A stretch of 64,000 bases of DNA from Barthelona sp. PCE. Lineage: Eukaryota. The DNA is taken from assembly GCA_040285745.1 (NCBI GenBank), contig JAUFOR010000008.1:186001-250000 (forward strand). Reading direction: 5' to 3'. Shown one piece after another: positions 30,036 to 64,000 of this stretch; the stretch's first letter is position 1, and each line of letters begins with the position of its first letter. Below the pieces are notes generated by a model that was not told the DNA's origin, did no database searches, and was given only the letters and a program-made list of their open reading frames with translations. A program made the position numbers and the translations under genes.

Positions 30036-30438
30036 AAAAAAAAACGTAGTAAAAATAAGATAATACTTTTTGGTCAATTTTACAAGAACTAATCCACTGG
30101 ATGTGAATAAATTTTGTTGTTTCAGCAATTTTAAACAAACCAATCCAGTGACAGCATCACCGATTCTATGATATTGATTCTGATCAAATATCGGTTATAT
30201 AAATGCACAAGATACGATAAACGTTAATATTGAAGCAACTAGAAGTGATGATGTGTTGATCAGCTCACAATCCAATGAGAAACACTCAATCTTTTCCTTC
30301 TCCTGTGAAGCAATAAAATAAAGCGCATTGTGATTCACAAATGCGTAAAAAACCACACATAATCGACAGATGTTAAGTTTTAAAAAGAGGCCATGTTTAA
30401 CATTTTTCTTCTCATATCAACGAACTTTGGGAATCATA

Positions 30439-32253
30439 ATGTTTGTATTCGAGAATTCATTCGAAGTAGCACTCAAGCTTGGTGGTATTTACACAGTTTT
30501 AAGAAGCAAAGTACCTGCACAGACTGCGGAACTTGGTGATAACTATTGTCTTGTTGGACAATACGAGGACGCCCCACACGAGATCGAGTTCGATGCCTGT
30601 GAAGCTGGTCCTGTCTGGCTCAACACGGCACTTGAAGATTTCAAAAAAACATACGGAATTGATTATGCTATCGGTAAATGGTTGATCACTGGTCGCCCCC
30701 TTGCAGTTCTTCTCCAGATCAAGAACAACATTAACCTTGACGAACTCAAAACAAGACTATACGAGCAACACAAATTGGAAACCCCAGAAACTGGTGTCGA
30801 TCCTCTCACAGACAAGGTAGTGATCTTCGGTGAGACGTTGCACCTCTTCTACCAAATCGTAATGAAGCACGCTCCAATGGACGTAGTAGCCCATTTCCAC
30901 GAGTGGATGACAGCCTCTTGTATGTGTGACCTGGCTCGTTTCGCACACCCCAAGCTCAAGACCGTCTTCACGACACACGCAACAATGATGTCTCGCTACC
31001 TCTGCGTTGCACGCGGACTTGACTTCTACATCAACCGTATTTTACACGCACATGATGAATACGACTGGGTCGATGATGCAAAGGAGTTCGGCATATACCC
31101 GCGTGTTCTCATCGAGTACAAAGCTGCGCATGCATGCAACGTATTCACAACTGTTTCGGAAATCACAGGAAAGGAGGCTCGTGTTGTCTTACACAGGCAA
31201 CCTGATTTCTTGCTCCCGAACGGTCTCAACATTTCAAAGTTCGAGATTCCGCACCATTTGCAGAACCTTCATCAGGAGAACAAGCACAAACTGCAAAAAT
31301 TCTGCACTTCGCATTTCTTCCCTTCGTATTCGTTTGATCTCGACAAGACCATGTTCTTTTTTACCTCTGGCCGCTTTGAGCCCCAAAACAAAGGATTTGA
31401 CTTCTGTATAGAATCAATGGCTCGTCTCAACTACCAAATGCAAGCTAATAACATCGATAAGACTGTTGTTTTCTTCATCGTCACTCGTACCCCCACAGAA
31501 AACGTGCTGCCCGACCTCCTCGAGCAGCGTGCTCTTTCTGATCAGATCGAAGAAACACTGAAGGATATTGGTGGACAAATATCAACCTCATTGTATGATC
31601 GTGTAATCCACGGCAGTCCTCTCTGTGACGATGGGTGCGGCAAGGGAAGCACCATTGCTGTCGAAAACCATATCTCAGAGACGAGTTGGCTGAAGTTAAG
31701 GAGATTACGTCATGCGTTCAACCGTGATGAACTACCGCCTGTAACCACTCATCGTCTTGTCAATGATAATGACGAGATCATCGAACAGATTCGCAAATGT
31801 CAGTTATTCAACAACGAGCATGATAAAGTCAAAATTATCTATCATCCAGATTTCATTAACAGTGCTTCACCGCTTTTCCAACTCGACTACTCCGACTTCG
31901 TCCGTGGATGCCACATGGGAATCTTCCCCTCCGCATATGAGCCGTGGGGACTCACACCTCCTGAGTGCGTTGTGTCATCAGTCCCATGCATCACCTCAGA
32001 TCTAGCTGGATTTGGTGCGTGGATGAAGAAATCATGCCCTGAACACGATAAATACGGTATCTATATCGCAGAGAGAAGCCGCCTTGGTGATGAAAAGGCA
32101 ATCGACCAAATGGTGGAAATTTTGATGAGATTCCTCTCACAAGATAGATGGGCACGTATCAAGCAACGTAACAAAGCTTTCGAGGCCTCCAAACTTTTCG
32201 GTTGGAATAGGCTTGTTAAGGACTATCTCCGTGCGTATGGTATGATCCAGTAA
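30439..32253 (+). CDS. Glycogen synthase, GT3 family
   Basis: EVALKLGGIYTV, HFHEW, FTTHAT, SGRFEPQNKG, PSAYEPWGLTP. Confidence 0.93.
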   Translation: MFVFENSFEVALKLGGIYTVLRSKVPAQTAELGDNYCLVGQYEDAPHEIEFDACEAGPVWLNTALEDFKKTYGIDYAIGKWLITGRPLAVLLQIKNNINLDELKTRLYEQHKLETPETGVDPLTDKVVIFGETLHLFYQIVMKHAPMDVVAHFHEWMTASCMCDLARFAHPKLKTVFTTHATMMSRYLCVARGLDFYINRILHAHDEYDWVDDAKEFGIYPRVLIEYKAAHACNVFTTVSEITGKEARVVLHRQPDFLLPNGLNISKFEIPHHLQNLHQENKHKLQKFCTSHFFPSYSFDLDKTMFFFTSGRFEPQNKGFDFCIESMARLNYQMQANNIDKTVVFFIVTRTPTENVLPDLLEQRALSDQIEETLKDIGGQISTSLYDRVIHGSPLCDDGCGKGSTIAVENHISETSWLKLRRLRHAFNRDELPPVTTHRLVNDNDEIIEQIRKCQLFNNEHDKVKIIYHPDFINSASPLFQLDYSDFVRGCHMGIFPSAYEPWGLTPPECVVSSVPCITSDLAGFGAWMKKSCPEHDKYGIYIAERSRLGDEKAIDQMVEILMRFLSQDRWARIKQRNKAFEASKLFGWNRLVKDYLRAYGMIQ

Positions 32254-52217: not shown

Positions 52218-53987
52218 TTACGAAAATTCGAACTTGCTAATTGGTTCAAGCATTTCATGTGCTTCGTCTTCGTCAAGATCCTGTTTAACTCGATAGAAAA
52301 CTTTACGATAAAGCGATCCATTGTGACCATTTTTCCGCTCTGCCTCCTCAACCGACTGAACCGCAATTTCATACGACTTAGCCTCCAATGCAGCAATTGT
52401 TCGCTCCGATGGATCTCGGATTGCAGCAACAAACGGTCTCAAAAACGGTTCTTTCATGTTCGCAGTAGCGCATAACTCTCGAATAAAAATCTTCATGGGC
52501 ACCGTACACTTAAGACGACCAGAAAAGAACGCCTTACTGATAAAATGAGAGACAATCTCTTGCTGTTGACCTAGATTGGCCATAGCACGAAGTTTCTGAA
52601 CTTCCTTCATTTGTTGAGGAAGATTAAACGATTGTTTAACAAAAGCATGGCTCAATTCGCTCCGTCTAGGTGCTGTGGAGTGGAAGAAATGACAATAGTA
52701 GTACAGATCTATGGGAGAATCGCACGTCTTCAACAAATTTGGACGCTTAAAGTGCTGGAATTCAATAGGAGGGTTTGTTGCCTCTAACCTTCGATCATTC
52801 ATCTCAACAAAATGCACATGTTGTATGAAACGAATGTCCTCCTCTATCAGCTCACCAAGCCAAACGTAAGGAGTCATTCTAATTCTATCCTTAACACGAT
52901 TCAACGCCACAATACGCTGATCAAAGTCCTTGATGTCGTTTGCGAGGTGATACAATTCCAGAATCGTCTTTTTACCTCTGCCCGACTGTTCCAAGAAATC
53001 TACAAGTCGTTCAGGATGTTTAAGACTTAGAAATCGATCTACAAAGCTGTGTAGAGTGGTAAACTCGTCGATTAGATCACAGAATATGCTAAACTGAAGC
53101 GTATTGTATGAAAAAATAATTATTTTTTCAAGTGCAACCACTGACTTCTGCTCAACAGCTGCAAAAAGAAGCTCACGTTGCAGCCTCAGTGCTGAGTACT
53201 TTTCAAGGCTTACGTCAATACCTTCTTCAATCGATCGAATTACATCCGAAAACGTTTGAGGCTCATATTTATCCAATTCTGCCTGAAGAGTACTAATCTT
53301 CACTTCGTAATCCTTAAGCTTCTTCCGAAGGGCAAAGATCTCTGAGTCAGTTGTCGATGACCTGCGCCGCCGTGCGGAAGGTGGACGTTCTGTTGATACT
53401 TTTTTCGGCACTTCAGAATAGACAACTGGAACTGGTTGAATCTGAGACTCAGGGGCGGGATATGAGACCTCGGGCAGATCAATGTTGATGGAAACCTCAC
53501 CTTTTGGCTTGGTGTTAGCGTTAGGTTTTGAAATTGGAGATTCTTTCTTGATAGGTTGATGTTTAACTTCAGAAGATTCTGCACCCAAAGGGAGTCCAAA
53601 TTGAGCTTCTTCTTCCTTGTTCTCCTCTTCTGGCTCGCTATCTAAATCCTGAGCCAATGTACCACTAAATGGAATATCTTCTACTGGTTCCTGAGCGTTT
53701 TGTGTGTGCTCTACATCATGCACCGCAATGATGGTGGGTTCTGGTTCCTCTACCTGTTGAACTGGCTCTGTGAAAGGCTTGATATCAAAATTAAGTGAAA
53801 GATCATCTGTTTGACCAAAAGAACCAATATTAGATTCTCCAAACGTCGGAGTTGGGTCATCGTTGCGATTTAAAAACTCCATATAAACATTTGAAGCAGC
53901 AGTTTCACGAAAGGGTTTAGAAGTTGGTCTAAAATCTGACATACTGTCAAATTCGAGATCAATATCCATGTGTGCGTCCATTTGCAT
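52218..53987 (-). CDS. SPE-39/VIPAS39 (Vps16 C-terminal)-like protein
   Basis: Disordered N-terminus, then SLEKYSALRLQRELLFAAV and a helical region recalled as SPE-39-like. Confidence 0.5.
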   Translation of the reverse strand: MQMDAHMDIDLEFDSMSDFRPTSKPFRETAASNVYMEFLNRNDDPTPTFGESNIGSFGQTDDLSLNFDIKPFTEPVQQVEEPEPTIIAVHDVEHTQNAQEPVEDIPFSGTLAQDLDSEPEEENKEEEAQFGLPLGAESSEVKHQPIKKESPISKPNANTKPKGEVSINIDLPEVSYPAPESQIQPVPVVYSEVPKKVSTERPPSARRRRSSTTDSEIFALRKKLKDYEVKISTLQAELDKYEPQTFSDVIRSIEEGIDVSLEKYSALRLQRELLFAAVEQKSVVALEKIIIFSYNTLQFSIFCDLIDEFTTLHSFVDRFLSLKHPERLVDFLEQSGRGKKTILELYHLANDIKDFDQRIVALNRVKDRIRMTPYVWLGELIEEDIRFIQHVHFVEMNDRRLEATNPPIEFQHFKRPNLLKTCDSPIDLYYYCHFFHSTAPRRSELSHAFVKQSFNLPQQMKEVQKLRAMANLGQQQEIVSHFISKAFFSGRLKCTVPMKIFIRELCATANMKEPFLRPFVAAIRDPSERTIAALEAKSYEIAVQSVEEAERKNGHNGSLYRKVFYRVKQDLDEDEAHEMLEPISKFEFS

Positions 53988-54063
53988 TAGCTGTATATAT
54001 AAATTATTACGAAAAGGGGTGAAAAACAATAAAACAAAAAATGCTGAAATTTTATTGACAATA

Positions 54064-55533
54064 TTAGTAACCATAAAAACGAGTGTTGCTTTGGAACAGG
54101 TTGGAATTATTATAACGACGGTTGTTTGTAGTACGACGTCTGGTTTGTTGTTGGAAACCTTGCTGGAAACCTTGAGCCATGCCACCCATAGCACTCATCA
54201 TCGAACCCATCATCGAACCAAGACCTGAGGCAAGTGTGTTGCTGCCATGCATAACGTTAGGATGCTGAGGCTGTTGAATTTGGAATGAAGTACCCTGCTG
54301 ATACTGGGGTTGTTGGTACTGGGGTTGTTGAGGTTGCTGGTATTGGGGTTGAGGCTGGTACTGGGGTTGAGGCTGGTACTGGGGTTGAGGCTGGTATTGA
54401 GGTTGAGGCTGTTGGTACTGAGGCTGGGGTTGGGGTTGATACTGAGGTTGAGTAGGATATTGAGGTTGAGTAGAATATTGAGGTTGTCCCATTGGTTGTC
54501 CCATGGGGTTGGGCATAAAACCTCCATCATCAGGCATGGTGAATCCCTGGTTCGACTGGGTCTGAGTGTTTCCACACTGAGCATTGAGGCTCCACATGTC
54601 AACAAAACCACCGTTCTGCATCATTGATGAAAAAGCATTCTCCATTGCCATAGTGGTGTTGTTTTTGGGCTTTTGCATGAGGGGATGGATCGGAACGGAA
54701 TTCTGAGGACCACGCTCGGTTGTAGTACCTTGACGAGGGCAAGAGAACTTGGGAACGGTGTCAAGGCTTGCCTGGAATGTAATCTGACCAACAGGGTTGT
54801 TTGCTTTATCAACAACGCTAATGTTGTACTGCTTGGGTTGTGTGGGGTCGGCAGGGATCTGATCAAACGTGAAAGTGGCCGTACCAAACTTTGAATCACT
54901 TATCATACCCTTGTCCATGATATCAATAACGAAGGGACGTGACTCCAGTTCTCTGAACGTGGTTGCGATCGTCAAAGGATTGATATATTGGAATTGGTAC
55001 ATTTGATAGTTACCAACCTTCTCAGATTCGACTGATACATTATCTTCCTGCTCACGATGAACCTTGAGGTAAAGATTGACAGCACGAGCAAGTTGGACAG
55101 CAACGTTAGATATACCAACGCGAGTCTCAGTGATAGCTTCAGCGATACACTTGAAACTGACACGACCCTGAACAAACTGAGCTTGGTGGTCTTGGGGCAT
55201 AAAGAGAGCCATAGATCTTTGCTCAGGAGCAAGGAGCATGGCCTCGACGGTGAGGACGCTCATTCCAATCATCTGATCCTTACCAAACTCCTGGTCAAGA
55301 CACACAATCTTAAAGAAAACTTCACCAATACGTTCTTCATCAACTTCAAACTCAAAAACGAACTTGTCGTCAAATTGAGCGGACAAACAACGCTTAATTG
55401 TCTTGGTCTTAAACTCTTGCAGACCGTTCTTTGCTTCTACAGAAAAAACAACATAAGGGTCACTTGTACCATCCTCATTACGAGGAGCAAGGTTAGAAAC
55501 AGAAATATTATCAAGGAAACAACGTACACGCAT
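54064..55533 (-). CDS. Tandem C2-domain protein with PQYQ-repeat tail
   Basis: DGTSDPYV, second C2 domain, QPQY repeats. Confidence 0.85.
   Translation of the reverse strand: MRVRCFLDNISVSNLAPRNEDGTSDPYVVFSVEAKNGLQEFKTKTIKRCLSAQFDDKFVFEFEVDEERIGEVFFKIVCLDQEFGKDQMIGMSVLTVEAMLLAPEQRSMALFMPQDHQAQFVQGRVSFKCIAEAITETRVGISNVAVQLARAVNLYLKVHREQEDNVSVESEKVGNYQMYQFQYINPLTIATTFRELESRPFVIDIMDKGMISDSKFGTATFTFDQIPADPTQPKQYNISVVDKANNPVGQITFQASLDTVPKFSCPRQGTTTERGPQNSVPIHPLMQKPKNNTTMAMENAFSSMMQNGGFVDMWSLNAQCGNTQTQSNQGFTMPDDGGFMPNPMGQPMGQPQYSTQPQYPTQPQYQPQPQPQYQQPQPQYQPQPQYQPQPQYQPQPQYQQPQQPQYQQPQYQQGTSFQIQQPQHPNVMHGSNTLASGLGSMMGSMMSAMGGMAQGFQQGFQQQTRRRTTNNRRYNNSNLFQSNTRFYGY
54295..54500 (-). repeat. Coding Gln/Pro/Tyr tandem repeat
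   Basis: CAACCCCAGTACCAGCCT-like 18-bp units. Confidence 0.85.
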
Positions 55534-56031: not shown

Positions 56032-56126
56032 AGAAATGATCAATAAAAAATTTCAACCGAACTTTATCATTAAAAAACCCACTCAAATTTTTCTAAATGG
56101 TACGCTTGTGAATAACTCATCCATGT

Positions 56127-56270
56127 TTATCCTCTATCCTACACCTTGGATGGTTTACTGAAGTGACAGCCTGCATGTTGGGAGGGCAGCAGAACTAAAC
56201 TGGGTACGGATCACGATACTGCCGCAGACTACGTATCCAGAGAGCCATGATTAACTGCTAACTATCTCAT
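56127..56270 (+). ncRNA. Unidentified structured RNA, copy 1
   Basis: Paralogue of 57691-57850 with a covarying stem. Confidence 0.55.
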
Positions 56271-56727
56271 TATTAAGAAAATATAATAAAAATATAATAA
56301 AAAACTTACCTGCGTTATAGGAAAAAAAAAATTCTTTACAGAAGTTATTAATATCCATTTAAATCATAACAAAAGATACATGACGTGGTGTTTAAACATA
56401 ATCTTGATTCACCATAGTTCCTTCCCTTACATGCAGCGGTAGTAAAGCCTGAAACTTTGATGATTTACAGAGATCTAAGTTTGGGTATGGTGCCACGAAG
56501 GGGTCACCGAGGTGGGTGTGCGGAAGTCCACAAATCCGACTCTCGATACTAATAAATAGGTATAAAATATACAAAAGAAAATAGGTAACCTTGATATAAG
56601 TGAACTAAGCTTGTAAATTTACTTCGGAGTTAGACACTTGTACGGGAGTTGCGAGCTCCCTCGAGTGCTATGCTTGCACTGAGAATTGTTCTAGAGCCCC
56701 TTTTTTTTAAAATAAAAGGGGAGAAAG

Positions 56728-56882
56728 AAATGATGCAAGTACTCACAGAGTACAAGAGGGAAGATCGCGTGTCTACTCCTCCAGTAGATTTACTCCTACG
56801 AAATAGCGTGTTATTCACAAGCGTGCCGCTTCGTGTTCCATTCTCTAATTGTTCATCAATCTGGGATCTTGAGGATCATTTT
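56728..56882 (+). ncRNA. Putative structured RNA ending in a T-run
   Basis: Terminal stem AAATGAT/ATCATTT; hairpins GTACTC/GAGTAC and TCTACT/AGTAGA. Confidence 0.35.
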
Positions 56883-57092
56883 TTTTTAAAAATAAAATTT
56901 TTTTAATAATAATAGATATATAAAATATTAGTAGTAATCATTTTTAATAAGGAGCTATTGCTTTTTTAGATACTAAAAACGTTATTACTATTTATTAAAA
57001 AAATATTTTCTTTAAGCAGGCAAACTTTCGAAATCAATATTTTGGTGACTTAAGAGATAATTACTAAATATTCGTTGAAAAAATTCCGAATA

Positions 57093-57173
57093 GCATGTAT
57101 GCGATAGCGGTTATTCGGTGCGCCTAGAAAGCGTGTGCCTCCGGGCTCCTAGGTTCAAATCCTAGTACATGCG
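57093..57173 (+). tRNA. tRNA-Ser(AGA)
   Basis: Acceptor GCATGTA/TACATGC, anticodon loop CT-AGA-AA, variable arm, CTAGG-TTCAAAT-CCTAG, TTTTT terminator. Confidence 0.93.
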
Positions 57174-57245: not shown

Positions 57246-57316
57246 ACGCCTGTAGTTTAGTGGTAAAACTCATGGTTGCCATCCATGTGCCGGGGGTTCG
57301 ATTCCCCCCGGGTGTA
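57246..57316 (+). tRNA. tRNA-Gly(GCC)
   Basis: Acceptor ACGCCTG/CGGGTGT, CATGG-TTGCCAT-CCATG, GGGGG-TTCGATT-CCCCC, T-run. Confidence 0.93.
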
Positions 57317-57484
57317 CTTTTTTAGCTCACTTTTTGCGTGGTCTATCTTGGTCTGCCTTGGTCTAAAATAATTCAATGCAATCTTTTGTAGTCTGTGCAT
57401 ATTTTTATTAGTAATTCAACTTTTTTGAATGTCAACCAAATCATTACGACACATTCTTATTGTGCCAAAAAAACTATGCAAAAA

Positions 57485-57557
57485 TGAATGTGAGAAGAAT
57501 CGAACTCCCGGCCTCGTCGATGCTAACGACGCGCTACTACCACTGAGCTACACACTC
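57485..57557 (-). tRNA. tRNA-Ala(AGC), full length with a 1-nt D-arm insertion
   Basis: Acceptor GAGTGTG/CACATTC with G3:U70, CGTCG-TTAGCAT-CGACG, TTCGATT loop, TTTT after. Confidence 0.9.
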
Positions 57558-57690
57558 CAAACTCCAAATTGTTAGTTTGACGGAAAAGTTCAAGCCAAAG
57601 TGTCAAGTACCGTATTGGTTATTCACAATTTCCGGTCAGTTTTCTCCCCCATCTCACGTAATTAGAGGTTAAGTATATCGAAAATAGTGG

Positions 57691-57850
57691 TTATCCTCTA
57701 TCCTACACCTTGGATGGTTTACTGAAGTGACAGCCTGCATGTTGGGAGGGCAGACAGAACGAACCGTTAGACAGGACGGGTACGGATCAATCAAGATACC
57801 GCCGCACGCTACGTACCCGTAGAGCCATGATTAGTGGCTAACTGTCTCGC
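57691..57850 (+). ncRNA. Unidentified structured RNA, copy 2
   Basis: First ~60 nt identical to copy 1; perfect ACGGGTACG/CGTACCCGT stem. Confidence 0.55.
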
Positions 57851-57892
57851 TATTGAGAAAATATGATGAAATTTTTTGTAAAATTTCTTGAT

Positions 57893-58015
57893 AAAACTTA
57901 CCTGCGTTCTTTCTGCACTAGGATATAATTTATGCAGAAGATGATGAAAGACTTTCTTGGATAATCCAGCACAGAATGTGTGCGGAGTAGTTTTTTCCAA
58001 GCTCACGGAAAAACA
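57893..58015 (+). ncRNA. Possible divergent U1 snRNA
   Basis: ACTTACCTG followed by hairpin TTCTGCA/TGCAGAA, possible helix GCGTT/AATGT and a U-rich tract. Confidence 0.3.
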
Positions 58016-58212
58016 ACAAAAAGTTTCGAAGATTATGTTGAAATTTAACTTTCTGGTTTTTTGTCTTTTTTAATTTTTTGAATTCAGGAAAGAAATCGAA
58101 AAGCAGTTACTCGAGTCCGAGTAACTTAGCTAGGATTATTCTTTAACTCTCACTATCAGTGTATGTCATCTAGGTTTCGGGTGCATCAAGATTCCGATTG
58201 CCATCAACTACA

Positions 58213-61200
58213 TATAATCAAACGGTAGAGACCCACAGTTAGTTAAAAATTACTAATTAAACTTTTTTTTTTTTCAATAAATTTTACAACCCCTAAATTA
58301 ACTTATACAGCTTAATCATATACGCACACACAGTTACTGTACTATATATAACTCAAAAGCACTACTATTCTTTACTAATCGTTCATAGTTTTCTATGGGC
58401 ATTAGTAGCAAATGGCCTCCACCAAAACTTTTGAAAAGGTAGCAGTGCTCCCGGCCTCGTCGATGCTAACGACGCGCTCTACCACTGAGCTACACACTCC
58501 AAACTCCAAATTGTTAGTTTGACGGAAAAGTTCAAGCCAAAGTGTCAAGTACCGTATTGGTTATTCACAATTTCCGGTCAGTTTTCTCCCCCATCTCACG
58601 TAATTAGAGGTTAAGTATATCGAAAATAGTGGTATAATCAAACGGTAGAGACCCACAGTTAGTTAAAAATTACTAATTAAACTTTTTTTTTTTTCAATGA
58701 ATTTTACAACCCCTAAATTAACTTATACAGCTTAATCATATACGCACACACAGTTACTGTACTATATATAACTCAAAAGCACTACTATTCTTTACTAATC
58801 GTTCATAGTTTTCTATGGGCATTAGTAGCAAATGGCCTCCACCAAAACTTTTGAAAAGGTAGCAGTGCTCCCGGCCTCGTCGATGCTAACGACGCGCTCT
58901 ACCACTGAGCTACACACTCCAAACTCCAAATTGTTAGTTTGACGGAAAAGTTCAAGCCAAAGTGTCAAGTACCGTATTGGTTATTCACAATTTCCGGTCA
59001 GTTTTCTCCCCCATCTCACGTAATTAGAGGTTAAGTATACTGAAAATAGTGGAGTGATCAAACGATAGAGACCCACAGTTAGTTAAAAATTACTAATTAA
59101 ACTTTTTTTTTTTTCAATGAATTTTACAACCCCTAAATTAACTTATACAGCTTAATCATATACGCACACACAGTTACTGTACTATATATAACTCAAAAGC
59201 ACTACTATTCTTTACTAATCGTTCATAGTTTTCTATGGGCATTAGTAGCAAATGGCCTCCACCAAAACTTTTGAAAAGGTAGCAGTGCTCCCGGCCTCGT
59301 CGATGCTAACGACGCGCTCTACCACTGAGCTACACACTCCAAACTCCAAATTGTTAGTTTGACGGAAAAGTTCAAGCCAAAGTGTCAAGTACCGTATTGG
59401 TTATTCACAATTTCCGGTCAGTTTTCTCCCCATCTCACGTAATTAGAGGTTAAGTATATCGAAAATAGTGGTATAATCAAACGGTAGAGACCCACAGTTA
59501 GTTAAAAATTACTAATTAAACTTTTTTTTTTTCAATAAATTTTACAACCCCCTAAATTAACTTATACAGCTTAATCATATACGCACACACAGTTACTGTA
59601 CTATATATAACTCAAAAGCACTACTATTCTTTACTAATCGTTCATAGTTTTCTATGGGCATTAGTAGCAAATGGCCTCCACCAAAACTTTTGAAAGGTAG
59701 CAGTGCTCCCGGCCTCGTCGATGCTAACGACGCGCTACTACCACTGAGCTACACACTCAAACTCCAAATTGTTAGTTTGACGGAAAAGTTCAAGCCAAAG
59801 TGTCAAGTACCGTATTGGTTATTCACAATTTCCGGTCAGTTTTCTCCCCCATCTCACGTAATTAGAGGTTAAGTATATCGAAAATAGTGGTATAATCAAA
59901 CGGTAGAGACCCACAGTTAGTTAAAAATTACTAATTAAACTTTTTTTTTTTCAATAAATTTTACAACCCCTAAATTAACTTATACAGCTTAATCATATAC
60001 GCACACACAGTTACTGTACTATATATAACCAAAAAAGCACTACTATTCTTTACTAATCGTTCATAGTTTTCTATGGGCATTAGTAGCAAATGGCCTCCAC
60101 CAAAACTTTTTGAAAAGGTAGCAGTGCTCCCGGCCTCGTCGATGCTAACGACGCGCTCTACCACTGAGCTACACACTCCAAACTCCAAATTGTTAGTTTG
60201 ACGGAAAAGTTCAAGCCAAAGTGTCAAGTACCGTATTGGTTATTCACAATTTCCGGTCAGTTTTCTCCCCCATCTCACGTAATTAGAGGTTAAGTATATC
60301 GAAAATAGTGGTATAATCAAACGGTAGAGACCCACAGTTAGTTAAAAATTACTAATTAAACTTTTTTTTTTTTCAATGAATTTTACAACCCCTAAATTAA
60401 CTTATACAGCTTAATCATATACGCACACACAGTTACTGTACTATATATAACTCAAAAGCACTACTATTCTTTACTAATCGTTCATAGTTTTCTATGGGCA
60501 TTAGTAGCAAATGGCCTCCACCAAAACTTTTGAAAAGGTAGCAGTGCTCCCGGCCTCGTCGATGCTAACGACGCGCTCTACCACTGAGCTACACACTCCA
60601 AACTCCAAATTGTTAGTTTGACGGAAAAGTTCAAGCCAAAGTGTCAAGTACCGTATTGGTTATTCACAATTTCCGGTCAGTTTTCTCCCCATCTCACGTA
60701 ATTAGAGGTTAAGTATATCGAAAATAGTGGTATAATCAAACGGTAGAGACCCACAGTTAGTTAAAAATTACTAATTAAACTTTTTTTTTTCAATAAATTT
60801 TACAACCCCTAAATTAACTTATACAGCTTAATCATATACGCACACACAGTTACTGTACTATATATAACTCAAAAGCACTACTATTCTTTTACTAATCGTT
60901 CATAGTTTTCTATGGGCATTAGTAGCAAATGGCCTCCACCAAAACTTTTGAAAAGGTAGCAGTGCTCCCGGCCTCGTCGATGCTAACGACGCGCTCTACC
61001 ACTGAGCTACACACTCCAAACTCCAAATTGTTAGTTTGACGGAAAAGTTCAAGCCAAAGTGTCAAGTACCGTATTGGTTATTCACAATTTCCGGTCAGTT
61101 TTCTCCCCCATCTCACGTAATTAGAGGTTAAGTATATCGAAAATAGTGGTATAATCAAACGGTAGAGACCCACAGTTAGTTAAAAATTACTAATTAAACT

Positions 61201-64000
61201 TTTTTTTTTTTCAATGAATTTTACAACCCCTAAATTAACTTATACAGCTTAATCATATACGCACACACAGTTACTGTACTATATATAACTCAAAAGCACT
61301 ACTATTCTTTTACTAATCGTTCATAGTTTTCTATGGGCATTAGTAGCAAATGGCCTCCACCAAAACTTTTTGAAAGGTAGCAGTGCTCCCGGCCTCGTCG
61401 ATGCTAACGACGCGCTCTACCACTGAGCTACACACTCCAAACTACAAATTGTTAGTTTGACGGAAAAGTTCAAGCCAAAGTGTCAAGTACCGTATTGGTT
61501 ATTCACAATTTCCGGTCAGTTTTCTCCCCCATCTCACGTAATTAGAGGTTAAGTATATCGAAAATAGTGGTATAATCAAACGGTAGAGACCCACAGTTAG
61601 TTAAAAATTACTAATTAAACTTTTTTTTTTTTCAATGAATTTTACAACCCCTAAATTAACTTATACAGCTTAATCATATACGCACACACAGTTACTGTAC
61701 TATATATAACTCAAAAGCACTACTATTCTTTACTAATCGTTCATAGTTTTCTATGGGCATTAGTAGCAAATGGCCTCCACCAAAACTTTTGAAAGGTAGC
61801 AGTGCTCCCGGCCTCGTCGATGCTAACGACGCGCTCTACCACTGAGCTACACACTCCAAACTCCAAATTGTTAGTTTGACGGAAAAGTTCAAGCCAAAGT
61901 GTCAAGTACCGTATTGGTTATTCACAATTTCCGGTCAGTTTTCTCCCCCATCTCACGTAATTAGAGGTTAAGTATATCGAAAATAGTGGTATAATCAAAC
62001 GGTAGAGACCCACAGTTAGTTAAAAATTACTAATTAAACTTTTTTTTTTTTCAATAAATTTTACAACCCCTAAATTAACTTATACAGCTTAATCATATAC
62101 GCACACACAGTTACTGTACTATATATAACTCAAAAGCACTACTATTCTTTACTAATCGTTCATAGTTTTCTATGGGCATTAGTAGCAAATGGCCTCCACC
62201 AAAACTTTTGAAAAGGTAGCAGTGCTCCCGGCCTCGTCGATGCTAACGACGCGCTACTACCACTGAGCTACACACTCCAAACTCCAAATTGTTAGTTTGA
62301 CGGAAAAGTTCAAGCCAAAGTGTCAAGTACCGTATTGGTTATTCACAATTTCCGGTCAGTTTTCTCCCCCATCTCACGTAATTAGAGGTTAAGTATATCG
62401 AAAATAGTGGTATAATCAAACGGTAGAGACCCACAGTTAGTTAAAAATTACTAATTAAACTTTTTTTTTTTTCAATAAATTTTACAACCCCTAAATTAAC
62501 TTATACAGCTTAATCATATACGCACACACAGTTACTGTACTATATATAACTCAAAAGCACTACTATTCTTTACTAATCGTTCATAGTTTTCTATGGGCAT
62601 TAGTAGCAAATGGCCTCCACCAAAACTTTTGAAAAGGTAGCAGTGCTCCCGGCCTCGTCGATGCTAACGACGCGCTCTACCACTGAGCTACACACTCCAA
62701 ACTCCAAATTGTTAGTTTGACGGAAAAGTTCAAGCCAAAGTGTCAAGTACCGTATTGGTTATTCACAATTTCCGGTCAGTTTTTCTCCCCCATCTCACGT
62801 AATTAGAGGTTAAGTATATCGAAAATAGTGGTATAATCAAACGGTAGAGACCCACAGTTAGTTAAAAATTACTAATTAAACTTTTTTTTTTTTCAATAAA
62901 TTTTACAACCCCTAAATTAACTTATACAGCTTAATCATATACGCACACACAGTTACTGTACTATATATAACTCAAAAGCACTACTATTCTTTACTAATCG
63001 TTCATAGTTTTCTATGGGCATTAGTAGCAAATGGCCTCCACCAAAACTTTTGAAAAGGTAGCAGTGCTCCCGGCCTCGTCGATGCTAACGACGCGCTCTA
63101 CCACTGAGCTACACACTCCAAACTCCAAATTGTTAGTTTGACGGAAAAGTTCAAGCCAAAGTGTCAAGTACCGTATTGGTTATTCACAATTTCCGGTCAG
63201 TTTTCTCCCCCATCTCACGTAATTAGAGGTTAAGTATATCGAAAATAGTGGTATAATCAAACGGTAGAGACCCACAGTTAGTTAAAAATTACTAATTAAA
63301 CTTTTTTTTTTTTCAATAAATTTTACAACCCCTAAATTAACTTATACAGCTTAATCATATACGCACACACAGTTACTGTACTATATATAACTCAAAAGCA
63401 CTACTATTCTTTACTAATCGTTCATAGTTTTCTATGGGCATTAGTAGCAAATGGCCTCCACCAAAACTTTTTTGAAAAGGTAGCAGTGCTCCCGGCCTCG
63501 TCGATGCTAACGACGCGCTCTACCACTGAGCTACACACTCCAAACTCCAAATTGTTAGTTTGACGGAAAAGTTCAAGCCAAAGTGTCAAGTACCGTATTG
63601 GTTATTCACAATTTCCGGTCAGTTTTCTCCCCATCTCACGTAATTAGAGGTTAAGTATATCGAAAATAGTGGTATAATCAAACGGTAGAGACCCACAGTT
63701 AGTTAAAAATTACTAATTAAACTTTTTTTTTTTTTCAATAAATTTTACAACCCCTAAATTAACTTATACAGCTTAATCATATACGCACACACAGTTACTG
63801 TACTATATATAACTCAAAAGCACTACTATTCTTTACTAATCGTTCATAGTTTTCTATGGGCATTAGTAGCAAATGGCCTCCACCAAAACTTTTGAAAAGG
63901 TAGCAGTGCTCCCGGCCTCGTCGATGCTAACGACGCGCTCTACCACTGAGCTACACACTCCAAACTCCAAATTGTTAGTTTGACGGAAAAGTTCAAGCCA
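58213..64000. repeat. Tandem array of ~420-bp units (about 13.8 copies, runs off the window)
   Basis: Near-identical units; AGCAGTGCTCCCGG recurs 14 times between 58441 and 63902. Confidence 0.98.
58448..58499 (-). pseudogene. 3'-truncated tRNA-Ala(AGC), first of 14 array copies
   Basis: 52 nt matching tRNA-Ala through the 5' T-stem; T-loop and 3' acceptor strand replaced by CACTGCTACCTTTT. Confidence 0.9.

What the first reader, a model, noticed from the sequence alone, without database searches (positions are those of the whole stretch)
57505..58632. The array unit is a two-part chimera whose parent segments lie next to it
Seen: unit = segment A (about 58213-58447) + segment B, a copy of 57505-57690. 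B's left break is at the tRNA T-stem/T-loop boundary. B's right break falls where the duplicated ncRNA begins (native GTGG|TTATCC; array GTGG|TATAATC). The whole 133-bp spacer between tRNA and ncRNA was captured and both flanking RNAs were given new ends. Inference: breakpoints at functional boundaries suggest promoter capture or site-specific recombination in the T-arm.
Basis: partly seen in the sequence, partly recalled or inferred. Interest (0 to 1): 0.75.

Follow-up and report, generated by a model that had tools for sequence, protein, structure and literature searches.

The report
Tandem repeat born beside tRNA gene
A 420-base repeat, present in at least 14 head-to-tail copies, was stitched together from two nearby pieces of DNA (part of an alanine tRNA gene with its upstream spacer, and a stretch half a kilobase further on), and it looks like a young, ordinary satellite rather than a new recombination or promoter system.

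Summary
A tandem array of 419-421-bp units runs from 58213 past the window end (13.8 copies, 98% alike). Each unit is segment A (235 nt, as at 58213-58447) plus segment B. B copies 57505-57690 and differs from it by one extra base. B holds the first 53 nt of a minus-strand tRNA-Ala(AGC) gene and the whole 133-bp spacer upstream of it. The left break lies between tRNA positions 53 and 54, so the units keep the A box and lose the B box. The right break lies within 0-3 nt of the edge of a 190-218-nt element, P, whose only other copy in the window is at 56126-56316 (77% identity). P matches no Rfam family, so calling it an "ncRNA" is unproven.

My reading: illegitimate, replication-type joining made a two-junction unit from the ancestral order B-X-A. 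Unequal exchange then amplified and homogenised it, and the tRNA pieces are dead passengers. Site-specific recombination in the T-arm is contradicted, and promoter capture could not be tested. No genome, reads or relatives were available. This is a new member of a known kind, of modest interest.

The parts
57485..57557 (-). Intact tRNA-Ala(AGC) gene. Its first 53 nt (57557 down to 57505) are the tRNA part of segment B. It has one extra base in the D arm, which gives a non-canonical D-stem pair.
   Evidence: ARAGORN. Rfam RF00005 at 52.1 bits, with 'v' marks on the D stem. Extra base compared with the array copies.
57505..57690 (.). Segment B0, the parent copy of the B half of the unit: tRNA positions 1-53 plus the 133-bp spacer 57558-57690.
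   Evidence: families D1, D6; 99.5% over 186 nt to 58448-58632.
57691..57908 (.). Element P2, a sharply bounded paralogue of 56126-56316. It is the left part of the 522-bp piece X that the array units lack. Its strand and nature are unknown.
   Evidence: D4, D5, D8; 77% over 218 columns, E 5e-45; flanks unrelated. No Rfam family.
56126..56316 (.). Element P1, the only other copy of P in the window. It has no tRNA beside it.
57909..58212 (.). R2, the unique right part of X. It is T-rich and holds a perfect 9-bp hairpin (58105-58113 / 58118-58126). It is absent from the array units.
   Evidence: (self-hit only), and the sequence.
58213..58447 (.). Segment A1, the first array copy of A and the only place where A has a non-array left flank. 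It contains a T12 run at 58263-58274.
58448..58632 (.). First array copy of B. It carries the A box on the minus strand at 58492 and has no B box. TTTT follows 10 nt after the tRNA break on the minus strand.
   Evidence: The Rfam tRNA match at 58434-58499 scores 26.2 bits, below the gathering score of 29.
58213..64000 (.). Tandem array of the 419-421-bp A+B unit. There are 13 complete units and one partial unit, and the array continues beyond the window.
   Evidence: No open frame longer than 52 codons. GC 0.36-0.37.

Best explanation
This is a young, locally born tandem repeat (a proto-satellite).

The ancestral order was: tRNA-Ala, spacer (B), X (P2 + R2, 522 bp), then A. One complex replication-type event, or two simple ones, created two illegitimate joins. 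The candidates are template switching or end joining, or a tandem duplication of B-X-A followed by loss of X from one copy. The joins are A-end to tRNA position 53 (58447|57505) and spacer-end to A-start (57690|58213, sharing 1 nt). The resulting 420-bp A+B unit was then multiplied and kept uniform by unequal sister-chromatid exchange and gene conversion.

The tRNA pieces are truncated pseudogene passengers: A box kept, B box and 3' third lost. No step needs a dedicated recombinase or selection for a product.

Shown here: the anatomy, the two joins, the homogeneity, and the absence of coding capacity and of known RNA families. Inferred: the order of events, the replication-based mechanism, and the lack of function.
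For: (1) Two novel joins with at most 1 nt of shared sequence at the one that can be scored. No terminal inverted repeats, no target-site duplication and no GT..AG ends bound X (sequence). No notable single-strand DNA hairpins lie at the breaks (z-scores -1.06 to +1.57).

(2) B0 is continuous with the only complete tRNA-Ala, so it is the parent and not a copy.

(3) The units are almost identical to each other and to both parent segments. Only 23 of 471 alignment columns vary. About half of these are homopolymer-length differences of the kind long-read consensus errors produce.

(4) P2 inside X is only 77% identical to its sole paralogue in the window. X therefore looks much older than the array, which fits X being ancestral at this spot.

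(5) Real substitutions are shared by neighbouring units. The A/G site has G in units 2, 3, 6, 8 and 9 of 14. The extra D-arm base is in B0 and in units 4 and 10. This is the pattern expected of unequal exchange and conversion, and it argues against an assembly artefact.

(6) No ORF and no Rfam family other than the truncated tRNA lies in the unit.

(7) Known background: rearrangement breakpoints are frequently bounded by tRNA genes (PMC2817429, start of abstract seen in the listing). Segmental duplications arise from replication-based repair of broken forks (PMC2518615, likewise).
Against: The spacer-end join coincides within 0-3 nt with the left edge of the P1/P2 similarity. The chance of this is about 0.5-1%, and this model leaves it as a coincidence.

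The left break sits exactly at the first base of the B-box motif. Two breaks at the edges of protein-binding or transcribed elements could point to a mechanism tied to Pol III complexes.

The far end of the array, the rest of the genome, other strains and all expression data were out of reach. The order of events and the absence of function are therefore inferences. An array of at least 5.8 kb in a genome with very short intergenic spacers is conspicuous and might be kept for a reason.
Confidence: 0.55

Rival explanations
1. Same kind of object, different history. B and A were originally adjacent. A single tandem-duplication join (A|B) made the array. The 522-bp piece X, which starts with P2, was later inserted into the first unit.
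For: This explains for free why the 'right break of B' equals the left edge of the P similarity: both are the left end of the insert. P has sharp edges on both sides, like a discrete transferable segment.
Against: Only 218 of the 522 bp of X are paralogous to the other copy, and at 77%. B0 and A1 are essentially identical to the array units. A recent insertion therefore needs a near-identical donor that is not in the window. X has no target-site duplication and no terminal repeats.
Confidence: 0.15
2. Promoter capture. Each unit keeps the complete divergent-promoter spacer plus the tRNA A box, joined to new sequence. The array would then be a multi-copy gene for a short Pol III RNA. That RNA could be about 50 nt on the plus strand, from the join to the T12 run. 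Or it could be a tRNA-Ala 5' fragment of about 65 nt on the minus strand, ending at TTTT.
For: The whole 133-bp spacer and the A box are retained in every unit. T-runs that could stop Pol III follow both candidate transcripts: T12 at 58263-58274, and TTTT 10 nt beyond the tRNA break. In Leishmania a divergently oriented upstream tRNA-Ala gene and a tRNA-like element direct Pol III transcription of U2 snRNA (PMC4950102, abstract read), so this architecture has a precedent.
Against: The B box is lost, whereas the Leishmania U2 work found that box B of the upstream tRNA-Ala gene contributes to U2 transcription (abstract). P has no Rfam family. P1 has no tRNA and no similar upstream sequence, so the spacer is not shown to be a promoter of P. 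The candidate plus-strand RNA folds no better than shuffles (z -1.06; 30 of 200 shuffles as good). The only TATA-like string in the spacer lies about 16 nt, not about 30 nt, before 57691.
Confidence: 0.12
3. The array is kept as a chromosomal structural element, for example centromeric or boundary chromatin next to a tRNA cluster, whatever its origin.
For: It ends an ORF-free stretch: no ORF of 150 aa or more beyond 55548, so at least 8.4 kb, in a genome whose genes are otherwise nearly contiguous. It is AT-richer (GC 0.36-0.37) than the 0.41-0.42 of the 4 kb before the ORF-free stretch. It follows three tRNA genes. A human tRNA tandem repeat has been proposed as a boundary element (PMC4041453, start of abstract in the listing).
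Against: There is no evidence on chromatin and no second array to compare. The position on the 2.17-Mb contig is unknown.
Confidence: 0.1
4. Assembly artefact: a long-read assembler over-expanded or mis-joined a short duplication.
For: Many differences between units are homopolymer-length changes typical of long-read consensus errors. No reads could be laid.
Against: The same substitution recurs in 5 of 14 units, and the same non-homopolymer indel recurs in 2 units plus B0. Random errors do not do this. Both joins are reproduced in every unit.
Confidence: 0.05
5. Site-specific recombination at the tRNA T-arm, as when an integrase-type element is inserted or amplified at a tRNA gene.
For: The break is exactly at the T-stem/T-loop boundary.
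Against: The 5' part of the tRNA is repeated, not the 3' part. No unit restores a tRNA (the best match, 26.2 bits, is below the gathering score). None of the 29 ORFs scanned has a recombinase domain. 19% of tRNA positions are structural boundaries anyway. The second join is not in a tRNA.
Confidence: 0.03

Closest known systems
Locally born tandem or segmental duplications from replication-based repair (broken-fork repair, template switching), later expanded by unequal exchange. Sources: PMC2518615 and PMC11790251, starts of abstracts seen in the listing. tRNA genes as frequent rearrangement boundaries: PMC2817429, same listing.
   Same: Novel joins with little or no homology, one breakpoint inside a tRNA gene, parent sequences adjacent to the product, and high identity between copies.
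   Different: The unit here has two joins and skips 522 bp. It reaches at least 14 copies. The mechanism is inferred from sequence only.
Entamoeba tRNA gene arrays (PMC2652664, start of abstract seen in the listing).
   Same: Tandem arrays of short units containing tRNA sequence in a protist.
   Different: Entamoeba units carry complete tRNA genes separated by short tandem repeats, and they hold almost all the tRNA genes of the genome. Here each unit has only 53 of 73 tRNA positions, no B box and no microsatellites.
Human 1q23.3 tRNA variable-number tandem repeat (PMC4041453, start of abstract seen in the listing).
   Same: A copy-number-variable tandem repeat that includes tRNA sequence and has been proposed as a boundary element.
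   Different: The human unit is 7.3 kb and GC-rich, against 420 bp and AT-rich here.
Companion-tRNA promoters of trypanosomatid small RNA genes (Leishmania U2 snRNA with a divergent upstream tRNA-Ala: PMC4950102, abstract read; the earlier Trypanosoma work is recalled, not seen).
   Same: A tRNA-Ala gene lies divergently upstream of a conserved non-coding element, separated by about 100-130 bp.
   Different: The downstream element here is not an identified snRNA. Its paralogue has no tRNA. The genes in the window alternate strands, unlike trypanosomatid polycistrons (PMC5814962, start of abstract in the listing). Dependence on the tRNA boxes is untested.
Integrative elements at tRNA genes, with att sites in the T-loop or anticodon loop (recalled general knowledge, mostly bacteria and archaea).
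   Same: A breakpoint at the T-arm of a tRNA gene.
   Different: Those elements duplicate and restore the tRNA 3' end and carry an integrase. Here the 5' part is repeated, nothing is restored and no integrase was found.

Membership tests
Tandem repeat / satellite DNA of local origin | Head-to-tail copies of one unit with high mutual identity | tested here: met
   13.8 copies, period 421, 98% matches. Units are 419-421 bp. 23 of 471 alignment columns vary.
Tandem repeat / satellite DNA of local origin | Non-coding unit | tested here: met
   Every frame of a tripled unit has 21-42 stops. The longest open stretch is 52 codons.
Tandem repeat / satellite DNA of local origin | Unit derivable from flanking single-copy sequence | tested here: met
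   B0 (57505-57690) and A1 (58213-58447) are the parents. The native right flank of A lies beyond the window.
Integrase-type site-specific insertion at a tRNA gene | A direct repeat of the tRNA 3' part restores the gene | tested here: not met
   The repeated part is tRNA positions 1-53. Array copies score 26.2 bits, below the gathering score of 29, and lack the T loop and the 3' acceptor strand.
Integrase-type site-specific insertion at a tRNA gene | A recombinase gene is associated | tested here: not met
   29 of the 34 ORFs of 150 aa or more were scanned against Pfam; the 5 left out are nested on the opposite strand of longer ORFs. No integrase, recombinase or transposase family was found at E<=1e-5 (11 ORFs) or E<=1e-8 (18 ORFs). 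The region beyond 64000 was not seen.
Companion-tRNA Pol III promoter (trypanosomatid type) | A divergently oriented tRNA gene about 100 bp upstream of a small RNA gene | tested here: inconclusive
   The tRNA-Ala is divergent and 133 bp from the edge of P2. P is not shown to be a transcribed RNA gene, nor to lie on the plus strand.
Companion-tRNA Pol III promoter (trypanosomatid type) | The downstream gene is an snRNA, 7SL or other known small RNA | tested here: not met
   No Rfam family for P at gathering score or at E<=10, even on 556- and 631-nt sub-windows.
Companion-tRNA Pol III promoter (trypanosomatid type) | Expression depends on the tRNA A and B boxes | not testable with these tools
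   This needs transcription assays. In the array the B box is absent and the A box is present.
Entamoeba-type tRNA gene array | Complete tRNA gene(s) in every unit | tested here: not met
   ARAGORN finds no tRNA in 58213-64000. Units hold 53 of 73 positions.
tRNA-derived SINE | A tRNA-like head with both A and B boxes, and dispersed copies with an A- or T-rich tail | tested here: not met
   On the tRNA-sense strand the units carry no B box; the only loose match to the motif (58530) lies on the opposite strand, in the spacer. The copies are strictly tandem, with none dispersed in the 58 kb upstream.

The most novel reading that the evidence does not exclude
The array could be a newborn multi-copy small-RNA gene family. 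A Pol III-type divergent promoter cassette (the tRNA-Ala A box plus the full 133-bp spacer) would have been cut out exactly at the edges of its two transcription units. It was fused to new sequence ending in a T12 terminator and amplified at least 14-fold. The cell would then make either a lineage-specific RNA of about 50 nt or a truncated tRNA-Ala 5' RNA in bulk. The two breaks at the B-box edge and at the start of P would reflect breakage at the borders of stably bound Pol III factors.
Probability: 0.1. Interest if true: 0.7.

Novelty: new member of a known kind. Interest (0 to 1): 0.3.

Why it matters
If the plain reading is right, this is a tidy textbook-style example of how a satellite repeat is born. 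Both parent segments and both joins are still legible next to the array, in a very compact genome of a deeply divergent eukaryote whose best protein matches reach only 33-44% identity. It may serve as a marker of recent genome instability at a tRNA cluster, but it does not change how such repeats are thought to arise.

It would matter more if the units were transcribed. That would show a new multi-copy RNA gene created by promoter capture at a Pol III locus. The unidentified conserved element P beside the tRNA may be the more interesting object for anyone annotating the non-coding RNAs of this lineage.

Tried and rejected
Access to more data:
- Whole genome: none is held for this window, so the far end of the array and other copies of P, X or A could not be examined.
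- Sequencing runs: none was listed and no RNA holder was listed, so no reads were laid.
- Exact-word scans for the conserved core of P and for a 27-mer of segment A found 0 matches in metagenome contigs and 0 in genome contigs.
- Earlier findings of this scan: nothing by place or by sequence, and nothing for the long word query. The short word query returned only prokaryotic and phage cases that do not bear on this locus.

Identity of P:
- No Rfam family at gathering score or at E<=10.
- By eye I compared P with recalled features of U1, U2, U4, U5, U6, U3, 5S, RNase P/MRP and SRP RNA. No convincing match emerged. These comparisons rest on recall and are not tests.
- Folding energy is not better than shuffles on either strand (z -0.76 and -0.37).
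- The two-sequence consensus fold gives one compensatory and one G-U change in a plus-strand stem, and none on the minus strand. This is a weak hint for the plus strand only.
- P as coding sequence: rejected. The indels are of 12, 4 and 1 nt. The frames I read by hand lack starts or hit stops.

Nature of X:
- X as a spliceosomal intron removed from a retro-copied transcript: rejected. Its ends are TT..CA on the plus strand and TG..AA on the minus strand.
- X as a transposon: no terminal inverted repeats and no target-site duplication.

Other checks:
- The paralogy does not extend beyond P. Smith-Waterman scores equal the shuffle means: 182, 246, 215 and 97 of 300 shuffles reach the observed score for the four flank pairs.
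- DNA hairpins at the breakpoints: none notable.
- The motif AGGTAAGT is not enriched in the window: 3 matches, of which 2 are the P copies, against 1.68 expected.
- Taxonomy: two protein searches and one Atlas look-up (best score 0.87, a lead only) did not name the organism.
Full report
SETTING

The window comes from a compact, intron-poor eukaryote. 34 ORFs of 150 aa or more lie almost end to end on alternating strands. They carry eukaryotic domains such as Sec23/24, SF3a60/Prp9, eIF2A, Hsp70-family, CLC channel and phospholipase B. The lineage has no close relative in the protein collection. The best non-self hits are 44% identity for glycogen synthase and 33-35% for the LSG1-type GTPase. 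The window's own proteins sit on a 2.17-Mb contig. I could not name the organism.

Beyond 55548 there is no ORF of 150 aa or more. This stretch holds three tRNA genes: Ser-AGA at 57093-57173 (+), Gly-GCC at 57246-57317 (+) and Ala-AGC at 57485-57557 (-). The array follows them.

Tandem Repeats Finder reports one array at 58213-64000, with period 421, 13.8 copies and 98% matches. Anchoring on internal words gives 13 full units of 419-421 bp and a partial unit of 328 bp cut by the window end.

Each unit is A (235 nt, first seen at 58213-58447) followed by B (185-186 nt). B is a copy of 57505-57690 (B0). It is identical to the array consensus except for one extra A in B0, and 2 of the 14 array copies also carry that A (99.5% over 186 nt by BLAST).

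B0 consists of tRNA-Ala positions 1-53 and the complete 133-bp spacer 57558-57690. By the Rfam structure line, position 53 is the last base of the 5' arm of the T stem. It is also the first base of the loose B-box motif. The units therefore keep the A box (58492, minus strand) and lose the B box, the T loop and the 3' acceptor strand. Rfam scores the array copy at 26.2 bits, below the gathering score of 29, and ARAGORN calls no tRNA in the array.

One T is shared between the two parents, so the B|A join has 1 nt of microhomology. The microhomology at the A|B join cannot be scored because the native right flank of A lies beyond the array.

WHAT LIES BETWEEN THE PARENTS

The 522 bp that the units skip (X, 57691-58212) begin with an element I call P2 (57691-57908). 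P2 has a single paralogue in the window, P1 at 56126-56316. Identity is 77% over 218 columns overall, 98% over the first 66 nt, about 80% in the middle and 100% over the last 16 nt.

The similarity stops sharply on both sides. Local alignments of the flanks score no better than shuffles. The rest of X (R2, 57909-58212) is unique.

P matches no Rfam family at gathering score or at E<=10, even when searched in sub-windows of 556 and 631 nt. Its folding energy is ordinary on both strands. A two-sequence consensus fold shows one compensatory change and one G-C to G-U change in a plus-strand stem. That is a weak hint.

The conserved last 16 nt contain, on the minus strand, a perfect CAG|GTAAGT. On the plus strand the same bases are the motif that I recall opens U1 snRNA. 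I could not decide between a plus-strand RNA and a minus-strand splice site with a conserved downstream segment. So "the duplicated ncRNA begins at 57691" is a reasonable guess, not a finding. P1 has no tRNA gene and no similar sequence upstream.

ARE THE BREAK POSITIONS MEANINGFUL?

In the tRNA, 14 of 72 internal junctions are stem/loop boundaries, so hitting one has a chance of about 0.19. The coincidence of the other break with the edge of P, within 0-3 nt, has a chance of about 0.5-1% for a uniformly placed break. This second coincidence is the one thing the plain model does not explain.

MOST LIKELY HISTORY

B0 is continuous with the only intact tRNA-Ala, so it is a parent and not a copy. 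The units are nearly identical to each other and to both parents: 23 of 471 columns vary, about half of them homopolymer lengths. P2 is only 77% like P1, so X looks far older than the array.

X has no terminal repeats, no target-site duplication and no intron ends on either strand. The breakpoints have no notable DNA hairpins.

I therefore read B-X-A as the ancestral order. Two illegitimate joins made the unit, either through template switching at a stalled or broken fork, or through a tandem duplication followed by loss of X from one copy. Unequal exchange and gene conversion then expanded and homogenised it.

Shared substitutions support real exchange between copies and argue against an assembly artefact. 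One A/G site has G in units 2, 3, 6, 8 and 9. The extra D-arm base occurs in B0 and in units 4 and 10.

That tRNA genes often bound rearrangements, and that replication-based repair makes segmental duplications, is taken from the starts of abstracts seen in the listing (PMC2817429, PMC2518615, PMC11790251). That tRNA genes stall forks is recalled.

RIVALS

(a) Late insertion of X. X may have been inserted late into the first unit of a pre-existing (A+B)n array. This explains the P-edge coincidence for free. It needs a near-identical donor that the window does not contain, and only 218 of the 522 bp of X are paralogous to the other copy.

(b) Promoter capture. The full spacer and the A box are retained. 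T-runs follow both candidate products: T12 at 58263-58274 on the plus strand, and TTTT 10 nt past the tRNA break on the minus strand. A precedent exists in Leishmania, where a divergent upstream tRNA-Ala and a tRNA-like element drive U2 snRNA transcription (PMC4950102, abstract).

Against it, that same work found box B important, and box B is exactly what the units lack. P is not an identified small RNA. P1 has no companion tRNA. The candidate plus-strand RNA folds like shuffles.

(c) Structural role. A centromeric or boundary role is possible but untested.

(d) Site-specific recombination at the T arm. This is contradicted. The 5' part is repeated and nothing is restored. No recombinase domain occurs in the 29 of 34 ORFs scanned. 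The second join is not in a tRNA.

(e) Assembly artefact. This is unlikely, for the reasons given above.

COMPARISON WITH KNOWN SYSTEMS

The object works like, and qualifies as, a locally born tandem repeat.
- It is not an Entamoeba-type tRNA array: those units carry complete tRNA genes (PMC2652664, start of abstract).
- It is not a tRNA-derived SINE: it has no B box, and its copies are tandem rather than dispersed.
- It is not an integrative-element att site.
- Its resemblance to trypanosomatid companion-tRNA promoters is architectural only.

WHAT COULD NOT BE DONE

No genome is held. No sequencing runs were listed. No matches appeared in the metagenome or prokaryote genome collections. No earlier notes of this scan bear on the locus. 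The far end of the array, other copies of P or X, population variation and expression therefore remain open, and these are the decisive tests.

VERDICT

The chimera reading is correct. The proposed mechanisms are either contradicted (T-arm recombination) or unsupported (promoter capture). The most likely object is a young satellite of local origin with dead tRNA fragments as passengers. Interest is modest (0.3). The unexplained coincidence with the edge of P, and the identity of P itself, are what deserve a follow-up.

Noticed in passing
56126-56316 and 57691-57908: An unidentified duplicated element, P, with sharp edges. The first 66 nt are 98% identical and the last 16 nt (AAAACTTACCTGCGTT) are 100% identical, while the middle is about 75-80%. 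The 16-mer is the complement of a perfect CAG|GTAAGT 5' splice site. On the plus strand it is also the motif I recall at the 5' end of U1 snRNA. No Rfam family matches.
   Followed up: partly
57485-57557 (-) versus array copies, e.g. 58448-58500: The only intact tRNA-Ala(AGC) has an extra base in the D arm that makes a non-canonical D-stem pair. 12 of 14 truncated array copies have the canonical GCTC/GAGC D stem, and units 4 and 10 share the extra base. Either the functional gene carries the derived state, or conversion runs between it and the array.
   Followed up: partly
59020-59075 (join of units 2 and 3): A cluster of six substitutions within about 45 nt straddles one B|A join (TATACTG... 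GTGGAGTGATCAAACGATAG, against the consensus TATATCG... GTGGTATAATCAAACGGTAG). It is the only unit with a divergent join.
   Followed up: no
58057-58126: Three T6 runs are followed by a perfect 9-bp hairpin (58105-58113 / 58118-58126, loop AGTC) in the unique part of X. It looks like a terminator region for an unannotated transcript.
   Followed up: no
58438-58447 and 58483-58494: The last bases of segment A (GTAGCAGTG) are an imperfect inverted repeat of the tRNA A-box region 40 nt downstream. A minus-strand transcript of the truncated tRNA could therefore pair its new tail with its own D-arm sequence (fold). By my rough estimate this could be chance.
   Followed up: partly
56317-57092: A 776-bp ORF-free stretch between P1 and tRNA-Ser holds several GC-rich hairpin-like segments (for example around 56490-56520 and 56640-56670). 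It has no Rfam match at E<=10 apart from noise, and may hold another uncatalogued RNA gene.
   Followed up: no
30370-32253 (+): For this glycogen synthase of a eukaryote, nearly all of the best matches that carry a source name are bacterial, mostly Bacteroidota-type (42-44% identity). The highest-scoring non-self hit is an insect protein (40% identity over 58% of the query). No eukaryotic relative scores clearly closer than the bacterial ones.
   Followed up: no
54064-55533 (-), repeats at 54302-54486: A C2-domain protein has a long Q/P/Y-rich C-terminal tract, encoded by 15- and 18-bp tandem repeats. It overlaps the next ORF (52218-54074) by 11 bp.
   Followed up: no
52218-54074 (-): This ORF has no Pfam family. 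The Atlas look-up suggests a SPE-39/Vps16_C-like protein (score 0.87, TM 0.49), which is a lead only.
   Followed up: no
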